Below are positions 6,711 through 38,917 of a stretch of 64,000 bases of DNA, piece by piece. Numbering within the stretch: position 1 is the first letter of the stretch; each line of letters starts with the position of its first letter. This DNA comes from Octopus vulgaris (lineage: Eukaryota). The stretch spans positions 120,652,001 to 120,716,000 of the forward strand of contig OX597816.1 of assembly GCA_951406725.2 (NCBI GenBank). The letters are read 5' to 3'. The translations under genes were made by a program, and so were the position numbers. The notes under the pieces are model-generated. The model had not been told where the DNA came from and did not search any database. It was given only the letters and a program-made list of their open reading frames with translations.

Positions 6711-6941
6711 ATATTAAAAGAAATGAGGTACTCAGAAATCTGGATGGTTTTATATTTACAGATAATTATTAGTATGTTACATGTTTTTATAAATCATATA
6801 TCATATATTTGACAACTCCTCTAGAGTAGACGAAAGCGCTAATATATGATATATGATTTATAAAAACATGTAACATACTAATAAATATCTGTAAATATAA
6901 AACCATCCAGATTTCTGAGTACCTCATTTTCTTCTAATATA
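6711..6941. repeat. Foldback, ~100-bp arms and 31-nt spacer, between (TA)n tracts
   Basis: 6711-6809 is the near-perfect reverse complement of 6841-6941. Confidence 0.9.
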
Positions 6942-7751
6942 TAATACCTGTACATCATCTCCAAACCTTCTAATATATATATATATATATATATATATAT
7001 ATATATATATATATATAATATGGGTGGCTAATTCGCTATTGTACAGCCTAAAGGCAGAAATGTATACGTCACTAAAGTGACAAAGGGCACTAATTAGCAA
7101 TACTGGTGCTAATTAATGTCCTTTAGTGACGTATATACATAAACGCATTCATACATACATACATACATACATACATACATACATACATACATACATACAT
7201 ACATATATATACATACATACATACATACATACATACATATATATATATATATATATATATATATATATATATATATATATTTATACGTGTGTGTGTGTGT
7301 TTGCATATATATAGTGAAACGTGTGTGTGTGTTTACATGCATAATGAAACGTGTGTATGTGTATTTACTGTTTTAAATAGAAAAGTCGGTATATTTGCAT
7401 ACATGGCAATACTAGCATTCAGAACTTGGATGATTTGATGTCCAGAAATATTTCATCCATGTTATTTTCTTTATAACCGTCCATTTAGAGAATAGTCAGC
7501 TACTATACAGAACATAGATGAGCGAGTAAATATGATCATGGAATGATTGCCCAAGTTTCTGCAGTTGACATCTTATTCTCTTCGTCGCAGCAGTGTAGTA
7601 TTGTGTAGTATAGTGTCAATAGCTTCTGAATTTATCACTTGTGATGCCATAGCAACTCTTGACAGTAAGTTCTGTAGATAGACACATATCATGATCATAA
7701 GCTGCACGAACCTAAAGGTTTTTTCACATGTTTTATCTAATATCATTTTGT

Positions 7752-8212
7752 CTTTTACTTTTATCTGGTTTCAATGGATTGCCACCATGCTGGGTCACCG
7801 CTTTGAAGGGTTTTAGTCGAGCTAATTGACCATAGCATAATTTTCTTTTTCCCTAAACTTTAACACTTCTTCTATCTGTCTACTTTGCCGAACCCTAAGT
7901 TATTGGGGTAAGCAAACCAACAGCGGTCATCAAGCAATGTGTGGTAACAAGCACAGACACAGACAAACATGCCAAGATTTGTGTGCATATATATATGCGT
8001 GTGTGTGTGTGTGTGTGTGTGTGTGTGTGTGTGTGTGTGTGTGTACACGAGAACTTACATACAGTTTCCTCACTCAAATTCACTCAGAAGGATTAGTATG
8101 TGGAAAGAATGTCTAGTAGAAGGCATTTGCGTAAGGTCCGCTAAGTGGGACTGAACCCGAAACAACGTGGTTGCAAAGTGAACCTCTGAATCACACTGCC
8201 ATGTCCATTCCT
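7752..8212 (-). mobile_element. CORE-like SINE with internal (TG)n microsatellite
   Basis: Matches the reverse complement of the 30292-30710 copy (gtgggactgaacccgaaac, ccatgctgg, tttgccgaacc). Confidence 0.8.
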
Positions 8213-8237
8213 ATATGAACAATTCAAAGCATAATAT

Positions 8238-8448
8238 TGGTTTCAAATTTTGGCACAAGGTCAGCAATTTCGAGAGAGGTGGCAAGTTGACTACATCGAA
8301 GTAAACGCTCGAAAGATACTTACTTTATCGAACTCGAAAGAATGAAAGGCAAACTCAATCTCGATGGAATTTGAATGCAAAACTTGAAGACTGATGAAAT
8401 GCCGCTAAGCATTTTGCTCGTCATGTTAACGATTCTGTCAACTTCACT
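8238..8448 (-). mobile_element. Degenerate Nin-domain-type SINE
   Basis: ggcacaagg...cgaaagaatgaaaggcaaa...ggaatttgaa...gccgctaagcattttg. Confidence 0.75.
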
Positions 8449-34699: not shown

Positions 34700-35300
34700 G
34701 CTCAAATTGCTTTCCTTAAGCAATTTGAGCAGAAACAAATTCATTCCAAAATCTTTGGAAATTAAAAAGCTGAAACATTTTCAAAGTATCATCAATTTTC
34801 ATATCCATACATTCTTCTCTTAACTCTTTCGAAACTTTTTTAATATAAAACATAAACAGCTTCCTTACCCAATTATACTTTTTTTTTATCTTAGTTCTCA
34901 CAGAAGCATTTATACTTTCTTGAGGGTACAGAAAAAAATTATCGTAAACTTTTTCTATACCTTCAAGAAAGATATTTTTGGTAGAGTCAGCAATTTCTGC
35001 AGCTTCTGAAAAACGCTTGAAGAGAAAGAAATGACACTTAATTCTTTTTTGATAATTCAGAATATCACTTTCTTCACTAATATTTCTTTTTTGTAGGAAC
35101 AGTATATCAATTTGAATGTGAATGCTCTCCTTGGAGGTACAACAAGTTAAGAGCAATGACTTTATCAACGAAGTCAGTGATATAAGATAAATATATCACA
35201 AATCTCCCCTCAGTCACAAAATTTATTTTTATGATAAAAGAAAATCCATTATTTCTGCATGAATCTCCAGTACCCCTCCCTGAACTTTTCTGCAAGGCAG
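34700..35300 (-). pseudogene. hAT (Buster/ZBED5/SCAND3-like) transposase C-terminal relic
   Basis: YLSYITDFVDKVIALNLLYLQG, KYNWVRKLF and REECMDMKIDDTLK..FW match the hAT motifs LAY..DIF..LN.LNL.LQG, W.RNPF and EEL..L..D..LK..F..FW. Confidence 0.7.
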
Positions 35301-37619
35301 CTATTTAGTATTTCAGCGTAACAGTAAGACATTCTAAGTAGATCCTACTGTATTACATAATTCAGAGAGTAACCTAACATTTGTTAGATTGGTTTAAATA
35401 AACTTGACAATAAGCACAGATATGGCGGTGTGGTTAAGAAGTTCGCTTCACGACCATGTTGTCTCGGGCTCAGTCCCACTGCGCAGCCAGCACCATGGGC
35501 AATTGATATATATATATATATATATATATATATATATATATATATATATATATATATATATAGGTATATATATACCTATGTGAGTTATTTTCTGAGTATG
35601 CATTGTTTGGAGACTTTTATTTGCAGTTGAAGAAATAGTCAAATTTTTGGCTGCTATTTCTGAAAAGTTCGGTGTGTGGTAAAGTGAATTTTTTTACTTT
35701 ACCATATTTTTATATATATATATATATATATATATATATAGTTCACAGATGAGATCCAAATATTCTCCATATAGAAGACACTTAGCAATGCTCAAAAGAT
35801 TCAAACTTAGACTCCGATGCCTTTACAGGAATCATTTCACTATGTAAAGAGAGGCTATAAGAGGGATCAAATAGATTGGGTATAGACGAAATTATGCGGA
35901 TAAGAAAATTAGACACGTCAAATATATTAAATATATTAAATGTAGTAAATGTAAAATATGTATGTATGTAAACAGGCAAAACGAGAGAAAGCAAAAAGTA
36001 GAAACTTTCAGATGATGAATTTTTATGTATAAATATATAGTAATTTATCTTAATAGATCCAAATTACACAGAATGCAAAAGACAGAGAAAATTAAAGGGA
36101 TGGAAGAAAGGTGTTTAAAGTCCAACAGCTGTTTCTGGAGTTCTGCGATCCATAATAATCTTGGTAGATTTAGTTCATCACATTATTCGGCCGTATTGAT
36201 GCAACTAACATTGAATGGGATGATCCTTCTTGATCAGGGTAGAGAAGATCTTACATTTCAGATCGCATTACGGAAAAGTTCCATCTTTGAAATTAATATA
36301 AATATCTATATATTTATACATAAAAATTCATATATGTATATACATATATATGATAGATCGCTAGCCCCTACACATTCTTTATTTTCACTCCCTGTTTCTT
36401 TCTGAGTTCATTTCCGTGGAAGAGAGTAGGCTCGAAACGTTAAAGACATTTCACTTCCCGAGCGTTATACTAATACATCTGTTTGTTGTCTACACTACCT
36501 GTCTTCGTTTTTGGTCTCTCTCTCTCTCTCTCTCTCTCTCTCTCTCTCTCTCTCTCTATATATATATATATATATATATATATATATATATAGTGCGCTC
36601 TCAAGAATCGAACTGCAGCTTTTGAGCTGTCAGTGTAACGGACAATCGACGCTGTCTGCATCCATTTTTACACACACACACACACACACACACACACACA
36701 CACACACACAATCACACGCACGCACGTATACACAAAATCATGCAAAACTTGAAAGTAATTTATTTTACACAAAAGCTTAATGTACTTATAATCGATCATA
36801 AATTCATATGAAAATAAGTCCCATGGAGTACAGTAATATTTTGTGTCTGTTTTAATCTCCGAAGAGAAGAAACTATGACAAGAAACCAATGAATAAATTA
36901 CATAAAACAAAATAGAAGGAAAATATTGTACGAGAGCAAAACTGTATTTATCAATTTAATTTATATCTCATTTAGTAATGGATTCACTCCAAAGCATCAT
37001 ACATATTCGCATATTTGAGCAGAAGTGACGCAAATACACACACACACACACACACATACACACACACACGCACGCACGCTTGCACACACACACACACGCG
37101 CACACACACACACACACACTCATACAGGCACATACATGTGTGTGTATGTGCATGCGTATATGTACGCAATGTATATGTGTGAATATACATGCGTGTGTAT
37201 GTGCGCGCGTGCGCATGTGTGTGTGTGTGTATGTGTGTTAGACATACGTATGCTTCACTTATTTAAATTTATCTTAGAAACGAGACATTAATCTGAGCGA
37301 GATCAAGAAGAAATTCAAAATATACTTATAAAAAAAAAGCTTTGAATAAATCCAGTTTATGTTGTTTGATTAACTTACGCATTTATGTATGTATGTATTA
37401 TGTATGTATTATGTATGTATGCATGTATGTATATTAAATATATATATATATATATATATATTATACAAAATGGGACAAGCACGCAAAACATCCAGACAGC
37501 TAGGTGATACAAAAAGGGACAACAAAAATCCAAATAGACGATACAAAAAAAACAAGGATGGGTCATTCGAAGCCCTCTATCCTCAGTCAAGCACCAGATT
37601 ATCATCGCAATTTCGGCTG

Positions 37620-37890
37620 TGTCATGCACTGGTGTGGAGATCAGCTGCCCAGTGGATATAAATGTCTCGTCAAAGATTGTGGAAGAGAACATCTATGGAG
37701 ATATAATGAGTGAGAGTTCTCATAAGAGATTATCAATTTTCATTTCCATTATCATAGGGGCATTGGCTTTATAACAGCAGCTCTGCATTGCGGCCTAGAA
37801 ATGTTAAGGTTCTTCTAGATTTAAGAAAACTGATTCACATCCTCCAAATATAATCCATTAAAATTTGTAAGACATTTCAGGGATTTTCCA
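37620..37890 (+). mobile_element. RLE-type LINE C-terminal fragment related to 15470-15935
   Basis: VEISCPVDINVSSKI...FISIIIGALG...KICKTFQGF. Confidence 0.75.
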
Positions 37891-38775
37891 TTTGCGTTTT
37901 CTTGGTTGAACATATCTTTTATCATTTATCATTTTACTTGTTTCCGTCATTAGACTGGAGCACTTGCCTGAAGAATTTCTAGTCGAATGCATCGACTCCG
38001 GTATTTTTTATAAACTTGGTACTTACTCTATCGATCTCTTTTGTCGAGCTGCTAGAATACGGGGACATGAACACATTAACATCAGTTGCCAAGCGGTGGT
38101 CGAGATCAAACATTGACACAAATACACACACACACACAAAATATATATAATTTAGATTCAGTTGAATTAAGTATTTAAATTTAGGCACCTTGTTAGGACG
38201 AACTTATCTGCACTCTCAAACAATATTTGATGAGTATGAAACTCTACATAGACTTTTTTTCCACCCGATATTCATGCAGTGTATATGATGATGACACGAT
38301 CCAACTTAGTGAATAAATCCGCTCTTGTTTGTTCAGACATGTACTTTATATATTCCAAATACTTCCAAAGTGCAGATTCCAGGGTAGTTGAGTAAAATAT
38401 GAGTAACAAAGATTATAAGTGTCAATTCATTACGGCCGTTTCGAGCGACTCCTTTAATTGATCAATGAAAGCATTACATCATTACAAAGAAAACCATTCT
38501 CATTAGATGACCAATTAGACCTCAAGCATAAAAGACAAGTTAAATATTTAATCATATTCATATCATCAAAAAAGAGCAAATATTTGCAAAGATTCTGCTG
38601 CTAAATGTTTTGGCAGAATGAAAAAAGAACAGTACAGCGACAGACAAGCCAGTAATTAGCATAGGCTAGAGGGGGTGAGAGAGGGATAAATAAGTATAGT
38701 GACCCCATTATCTACAATCGAAGACAATAGGGAGAAGGTATTCTTTGAAATTAGATCTTTAGGGGGTTATAAATG

Positions 38776-38917
38776 AATTAGTATCATGACAGACTGTACT
38801 ACTAGCTGAGAAAATTGAACTTTACATCCGGTTATATGAGCAACAAAAGCGTGCTCATATAGCCGGATGTGAAGTTCAATTTTTTCAAAAAATAGAACGT
38901 CTGTCATGATTCTAATT
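38776..38917. repeat. Foldback: 36-bp inner arms with a 9-nt loop, plus 19-bp outer arms
   Basis: 38807-38842 pairs with 38852-38887; aattagtatcatgacagac pairs with gtctgtcatgattctaatt. Confidence 0.9.

What the first reader, a model, noticed from the sequence alone, without database searches (positions are those of the whole stretch)
6711..38917. Recurrent foldback palindromes whose apex coincides with a hammerhead ribozyme 3' half
Seen: several inverted repeats unrelated in sequence, most in or beside (TA)n/(CATA)n tracts, carry a GAAA-stemIII-NUH-like motif where one arm begins. These are 6820-6841 TCTA-gag-TAGAC-GAAAG-CG-CTA (+), 7046-7070 GCC-taaa-GGC-a-GAAAT-GTATAC-GTC (+), 10674-10692 CTGAAG-c-GAAAT-AAGC-ATT (-), 14466-14477 GAAAG-AACT-CTG (-), 38845-38856 aAAAG-CGTG-CTC (+) and, weakly, 14951-14960 cAAAC-TG-ATA (+). 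Established: Penelope-like elements carry minimal type I hammerheads with a very short stem III in their pLTRs and often have an inverted pLTR. Inference: these are not ordinary MITEs but tiny Penelope/retrozyme-derived hairpin insertions in which reverse transcription folded back at or near the ribozyme cleavage site. Caveat: the motifs are short and were recognised post hoc.
Basis: partly seen in the sequence, partly recalled or inferred. Interest (0 to 1): 0.75.

Follow-up and report, generated by a model that had tools for sequence, protein, structure and literature searches.

The report
Head-to-head Penelope retrotransposon end fragments
These hairpins are back-to-back short end pieces of Penelope-type jumping genes, a known kind of insertion; only two of the six have a real hammerhead RNA motif at the turn, and copy ends across the genome likely mark where the RNA started and, less often, where the predicted ribozyme cut it.

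Summary
All six palindromes are real. Each belongs to a different repeat family whose longer copies carry a type I hammerhead; family B also encodes RT plus a GIY-YIG endonuclease. Five are two 5'-truncated copies head to head, one tailed and one tail-less, in or beside (TA)n: the published Penelope-like (PLE) signature. The sixth has a short inverted arm. Only 2 of 6 apex motifs (6820-6841, 14466-14477) are the family's hammerhead. The other four lie on the wrong strand or 20-420 nt away. The loose motif occurs in 36-82% of random 40-nt stretches. Junction-blind samples reject fold-back at the cut as the rule: 1 of 96 B arms ends in the ribozyme, and 4 of 81 A arms end within 3 nt of the cut. 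Instead, 19 of 81 A arms end just upstream of the core, about 32 nt after a TATA box. B end density steps up about 10-fold at the same spacing and about 3.5-fold at the predicted cut. That hints at transcript-start run-off plus a minor cleaved-RNA class (inferred). The scan has reported such palindromes before on other DNA of this genome.

The parts
6715..6809 (-). Family A tail-less inverted arm; 5' end at -1 relative to the predicted cut
6807..6972 (+). Family A tailed arm starting at -35; tail about 6943-6972; (TA)n on both sides
6809..6841 (+). Type I minimal hammerhead of family A (U3-A8 core, stem II with two changes, 1-bp palindromic stem III); the fold-back supplies a long stem I; predicted cut 6841/6842
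   Evidence: core variant described in PMC4209133
7020..7111 (-). Family C tailed arm (model +91 to +214); does not reach its hammerhead
7095..7138 (+). Family C tail-less arm (+91 to +143)
10463..10679 (-). Family D tailed arm (+46 to +256)
10676..10764 (+). Family D tail-less arm (about +22/+31 to +120), ends at (TA)n
14340..14477 (-). Family B tail-less arm (-10 to +128), holds the 3' half of the hammerhead; predicted cut 14468/14467
14476..14658 (+). Family B tailed arm starting at -2 to 0 (2-nt microhomology), i.e. at the predicted cut
14773..14951 (-). Family F longer arm (+116 to at least +295)
14944..15026 (+). Family F short arm (+110 to about +226)
38132..38847 (-). Family E body, old copy, with decayed hammerhead at about 38425-38510 (predicted cut 38431/38430)
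38852..38918 (+). Family E short inverted arm; no 3'-end part found in the window; abuts another retroelement fragment
60948..61150 (.).

Best explanation
The palindromes are head-to-head pairs of 5'-truncated end pieces of Penelope-like elements, likely made when both strands of an AT-rich target were primed on element RNA, one at the tail end and one at an internal start, and the two short cDNAs were joined at their 3' ends. Shown: the repeat families, the hammerheads in their longer copies, the RT and endonuclease ORF of family B, the tailed plus tail-less rule, and the spread of junctions. Inferred: double priming, joining by microhomology, and the reading of end hot spots. The apex falls wherever the cDNAs stopped. 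In family A that is mostly a likely transcription start 35-41 nt upstream of the cut, so apices land beside an uncut hammerhead. In family B ends likely reflect a start near -99 and, for a few per cent of arms, RNA cut by the hammerhead.
For: Family B copies continue into an ORF with the RT YVDD motif, a CX4CXXC linker and a GIY-YIG-type domain. Pfam GIY-YIG E 6e-4 is below the curated cut-off; a 91%-identical 803-aa protein gives RVT_1 E 0.004, also below cut-off. Hammerheads were found by descriptor in copies of B, C, D and F and read by eye in A and E. Tail rule: 22 of 23 head-to-head B pairs are one tailed plus one tail-less arm; A gives 6 of 10. Copy numbers: 3971 exact hits of a B 22-mer and 560 of an A 20-mer. 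A: 19 of 81 arms end in -43..-33 against 11 in the 45 flanking nt (p 2e-7), and the TATA-to-AGTT spacing in long copies is mostly 27 or 31-34 nt. B: TATA-like box at -131; cleaned end density about 2.5/nt at -132..-125 against about 25/nt at -99..-93, and about 7/nt at -12..-6 against about 25/nt at -2..+4 with its mode at 0. Single-position test: 45 hits at 0, 37 at +5, 12 at -10, 12 at -21. The same architecture is published (PMC8557442, PMC3846280), and two RT start sites on both strands were shown in vitro (PMC11167929).
Against: No ORF was found or sought in full for A, C, D, E, F; A's longer copies look non-coding. E's inverted arm has no 3'-end part, so E may be a local snap-back or a cut-off arm. 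3 of 10 A pairs scored tail-less on both arms. The cut zone in B is no richer than the window just downstream (about 174 against 160; p 0.48), and 0 of 96 blind arms end in -2..+4 (about 2.6 expected). Many junctions at 0 and at -99 carry microhomology. An extra G at A ends (cap copy) was not enriched: about 3 of 14. No RNA 5'-end data were available.
Confidence: 0.85

Rival explanations
1. One reading: reverse transcription folds back at or near the hammerhead cleavage site, and this makes the palindromes.
For: Window copies A and B each have one arm ending within 2 nt of the predicted cut. 16 genome-wide B palindromes have both arms reaching the cut with a gap of at most 24 nt, 13 of them with one arm ending at 0 to -2, against 6 at a control position +43 (p 0.026).
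Against: 4 of 6 motifs are not ribozyme. 1 of 96 blind B arms ends in -55..+6 against 37 in the flanks (p 1e-6). 4 of 81 A arms end within 3 nt of the cut. The 16 palindromes are few against thousands of copies. The arms differ at their outer ends, which a single fold-back does not give.
Confidence: 0.07
2. The end hot spots come from RNA structure and microhomology only: RT stalls at the folded hammerhead or small hairpins, and joining favours repeated words. No transcription start or cleavage is recorded. This rival concerns the hot spots, not the PLE identity.
For: 8 of the 45 junctions at 0 share a 3-4 nt word with the partner arm. Junctions near -99 often pair with +76..+84. A small hairpin lies at -47..-37 in one A subfamily.
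Against: Stem II, the strongest hairpin, shows no pile-up at its 3' base. The A peak also occurs against plain (TA)n flanks. Two unrelated families give a step about 32 nt after a TATA-like box. No arm ends at -1 among 65 true ends read.
Confidence: 0.35
3. They are MITEs of DDE DNA transposons.
For: Long near-perfect inverted arms, TA-rich targets and high copy number.
Against: The arms are asymmetric (a tail on one side), most copies are single 5'-truncated arms of variable length, the families carry hammerheads, and B continues into an RT plus GIY-YIG ORF.
Confidence: 0.02

Closest known systems
Inverted 5'-truncated pLTR insertions with optional tail of endonuclease-bearing PLEs (Craig et al. 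2021, PMC8557442; Arkhipova et al. 2013, PMC3846280; passages read)
   Same: Inverted truncated copy at the 5' end, tail on one end only, (TA)n targets, palindromes at the junction.
   Different: Here mostly ORF-less 100-300 nt pieces; the junction positions were measured against the ribozyme, which I did not see in the passages read.
Minimal type I hammerheads of metazoan PLEs (Cervera and de la Pena 2014, PMC4209133; parts 1-2 of 4 read)
   Same: Short palindromic helix III, extra base after position 9, U3-A8 variant, short helix I; the paper also notes opposite-strand pairs 100-700 bp apart.
   Different: Activity is untested here; family A's own stem I is only about 2 bp, and most B copies seen have C at position 9.
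Poseidon_Ac in vitro reaction (Frangieh et al. 2024, PMC11167929; parts 1-2 of 4 read)
   Same: Two internal RT start sites define the tail; both strands are nicked and extended; AT-rich targets; uncut RNA is the dominant template.
   Different: They found no RNA-seq reads ending at the cut; the B step at 0 suggests a small cleaved-template class. Family B has Neptune/Nematis-type zinc motifs, which the Penelope/Poseidon clade lacks.
Animal non-LTR retrozymes (Li, Clavereau and Pollet 2026, 10.64898/2026.07.22.740005; part 1 of 5 read)
   Same: Non-coding hammerhead repeats tied to PLE pLTRs; family A looks non-coding.
   Different: No tandem array with a hammerhead in each unit was seen for the window copies, so their definition is not met here.

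Membership tests
Endonuclease-bearing PLE (family B) | ORF with RT and C-terminal GIY-YIG endonuclease | tested here: met
   Motifs read in L021, L025, L040; Pfam hits weak and below cut-off; no Pfam hit for 3 other fragments
Endonuclease-bearing PLE (families A, C, D, E, F) | ORF with RT and endonuclease in a parent element | not tested
   Only 1.5-kb flanks were held; A's upstream 500 nt look non-coding
Endonuclease-bearing PLE | Type I hammerhead in the pLTR | tested here: met
   B, C, D, F by descriptor in 7 of 10 copies scanned; A (0 of 3) and E (0 of 6) missed by the descriptor and read by eye
Endonuclease-bearing PLE | Inverted truncated copy with a tail on one arm only | tested here: met
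   22 of 23 B pairs and 6 of 10 A pairs; pairs of C, D, F; not met by the window copy of E
Neptune/Nematis clades | CX2-5CxxC linker and CCHH motif | tested here: met
   Read from translations; definitions from PMC8557442 passages
Neptune/Nematis clades | Placement in the RT phylogeny | not tested
   No reference PLE set at hand
Active hammerhead ribozyme | Self-cleavage at the predicted site | not testable with these tools
   Only indirect end statistics; monomer folds are not stable beyond shuffles (z -1.8, -0.4, +0.9)
Non-LTR retrozyme | At least two tandem units each with a full hammerhead; circular RNA | tested here: not met
   Window copies are single pairs; circles untested
MITE (DDE) | Equal terminal inverted repeats with fixed ends and a target-site duplication | tested here: not met
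   Unequal outer ends and variable inner ends

The most novel reading that the evidence does not exclude
The 5' ends of thousands of PLE fragments form a fossil map of the element's RNA ends: a TATA-driven start just upstream of the hammerhead in two families, and a second step at the hammerhead cut in family B. That would be genomic evidence that a minimal PLE hammerhead cleaves in the germ line and that the cleaved RNA is used as a template.
Probability: 0.4. Interest if true: 0.6.

Novelty: new member of a known kind. Interest (0 to 1): 0.33.

Why it matters
The structure itself is known and needs no new class of element. What may matter is the end statistics. The role of PLE hammerheads is called unclear in PMC8557442, and cleavage was dispensable in vitro in PMC11167929. 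A step in copy ends at the predicted cut, beside a larger class that runs through the uncut ribozyme to a likely start site, gives a direct, cheap test. It also warns that repeat annotators may file these palindromes as MITEs.

Tried and rejected
Rfam scans showed no hammerhead among the rows displayed. Palindromic queries favour junctions like the query's and were not used for the enrichment test. The 3'-end-selected sets gave 5 of about 45 B ends at -7..0; the position-ordered sample did not repeat this. A random 600-kb sample held too few copies (18 hits over six families). A cap-derived G at A's 5' ends was not supported. A type III reading of A's hammerhead was rejected: only 3 nt lie between the candidate site and the core. 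A first A reference had a deletion that faked ends at -41, so it was replaced by several references. A tally of core variants over all loci was not done; core variants are quoted only as seen. The 34689-34741 palindrome has only weak relatives and was left unassigned. Literature searches showed no paper that maps PLE junctions against the cut site; this rests on listings and the parts read, and no supplements were read.
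Full report
Observation. The genome has 2.8 Gb in 227 contigs; a 91%-identical protein is named by its source as from Octopus vulgaris. Each palindrome belongs to a different multi-copy family, here A (6715-6972), C (7020-7138), D (10463-10764), B (14340-14658), F (14773-15026) and E (38132-38918). 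Positions below are relative to the predicted cut (0 = first base after it).

Which motifs are ribozyme. Longer relatives show a full type I hammerhead in every family. A descriptor found it in 7 of 10 copies of B, C, D and F; it missed 3 of 3 A and 6 of 6 E copies, where I read it by eye. In B the motif is the real 3' half, parsed 2 nt off. The C, D and E motifs are antisense to their elements, and F's lies about 117 nt past the cut. The strict motif occurs in 36% of random 40-nt stretches and the loosened one in 82%. So 2 of 6 are real and the rest are what chance gives.

What the elements are. Family B copies run upstream into an ORF with the RT YVDD motif, a CX4CXXC linker and a GIY-YIG-type domain with CCHH residues. 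Pfam support is weak and under cut-off (none), so clade assignment rests on motifs defined in PMC8557442 (passages). A B 22-mer has 3971 exact hits and an A 20-mer 560. In five of six window palindromes one arm reaches further towards the element's 3' end than the other, which stops at an internal site. In position-ordered samples 22 of 23 B pairs and 6 of 10 A pairs follow this tail rule. This is the published PLE signature: inverted 5'-truncated copy, optional tail, (TA)n targets (PMC8557442; PMC3846280). In vitro a PLE protein extends both strands from two internal start sites that define the tail (PMC11167929). E differs: its inverted arm is about 66 nt with no 3'-end part and abuts another retroelement fragment.

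I took the first 100 genome-ordered exact hits of a downstream B word (96 distinct arms) and 81 distinct arms from most of the first 100 hits of an A word (later hits were not fetched), and mapped 5' ends against real long copies. B ends spread from +90 to beyond -280. One of 96 lies in -55..+6, against 37 in the 111 flanking nt (p 1e-6). A has 4 of 81 ends within 3 nt of the cut, but 19 of 81 in -43..-33, against 11 in the 45 flanking nt (p 2e-7). Some arms are partners in one insertion, so the p values are optimistic. Fold-back at the cut is therefore not the rule, and most arms that reach the ribozyme run through it.

What sets the hot spots (inferred). In A the peak lies about 32 nt after a TATA box, at initiator-like words; the spacing to the first such word is mostly 27 or 31-34 nt by subfamily. 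The 30-32 nt rule and the initiator consensus are recalled textbook knowledge. Because the hammerhead begins a few bases inside this point, full run-off from both start sites gives palindromes whose apex touches the ribozyme (several). An extra G from cap copying was not enriched (about 3 of 14). For B I counted ends genome-wide with patterns that force three upstream mismatches, then removed indel and other-family rows by eye (all rows; first 100 rows, scaled). Raw totals and cleaned density per nt: -132..-125, 60, about 2.5; -99..-93, 200, about 25; -85..-79, 143, about 20; -12..-6, 57, about 7; -2..+4, 267, about 25; +5..+11, 202, about 23. The first step falls somewhere between -125 and -99, and a TATA-like box at -131 predicts -99. 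The second falls at the cut. Among the first 100 rows, 35 were indels; true ends were 12 at -2, 0 at -1, 22 at 0, 12 at +1, 5 at +2, 4 at +3 and 10 at +4. Single-position counts were 45 at 0, 37 at +5 (about 9 indels, 6 by chance), 12 at -10 and 12 at -21.

Against that reading. The cut zone is not richer than the next window downstream (p 0.48). The blind sample has 0 of 96 arms in -2..+4, where about 2.6 were expected. Many junctions carry microhomology, the patterns accept flanks unequally, and no RNA ends could be examined. Cleaved-template ends are thus at most a few per cent of B arms and remain a lead.

The window copies. A has arms ending at -35 and -1, joined through the short stem I homology; the result gives the hammerhead a long stem I that the family lacks. 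B has arms at -2 to 0 and -10, and is one of 16 such palindromes in the genome by exact pattern, against 6 at a control site.

Novelty. The kind is known, and earlier notes of this scan describe the same head-to-head insertions elsewhere in this genome; sequence look-ups for A and B returned nothing. Searches showed no paper that maps junctions against the cut or the start site; supplements were not read and may hold such data. Papers seen: PMC11167929 and PMC4209133 (parts 1-2 of 4), the 2026 bioRxiv preprint (part 1 of 5), and PMC8557442, PMC3846280, PMC2377424, PMC13282606 (passages). PMC2377424 describes a TATA-less internal promoter for Drosophila Penelope, so a TATA-driven start is not general.

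Noticed in passing
window 4470-5483 (-): Uninterrupted 337-aa frame that reads like a seven-helix G-protein-coupled receptor; judged by eye, no family scan run.
   Followed up: no
window 34689-34741: Perfect 24-bp fold-back with a 5-nt loop inside a decayed repeat with only weak relatives; a weaker one lies at 34915-34971. Not tied to a PLE.
   Followed up: partly
window 39753-40148 (-): Frame with a CCHC zinc knuckle, likely a retroelement ORF1 piece, close to the end of E's inverted arm.
   Followed up: no
window 48362-48477: Interstitial degenerate TTAGGG array.
   Followed up: no
window 6973-7019: One (TA)n tract carries family A on one side and family C on the other: repeated use of the same target.
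   Followed up: partly
family B loci, e.g. L254 and L263: Most copies seen have C at hammerhead position 9, a minority the canonical A; the effect on activity is unknown and was not tallied.
   Followed up: no
family F loci, e.g. L177: Hammerhead with a stem II insert of about 110 nt; D and E also have long stem II regions.
   Followed up: no
family E loci L073-L100: 3' ends fall at about +32 or +290, which would make a tail of about 260 nt, far longer than the published 30-40 bp; D's is about 140 nt.
   Followed up: no
family B, rows: Recurrent internal deletions between two copies of a 5-nt word remove the ribozyme's 3' half in about 7 of 100 rows.
   Followed up: no
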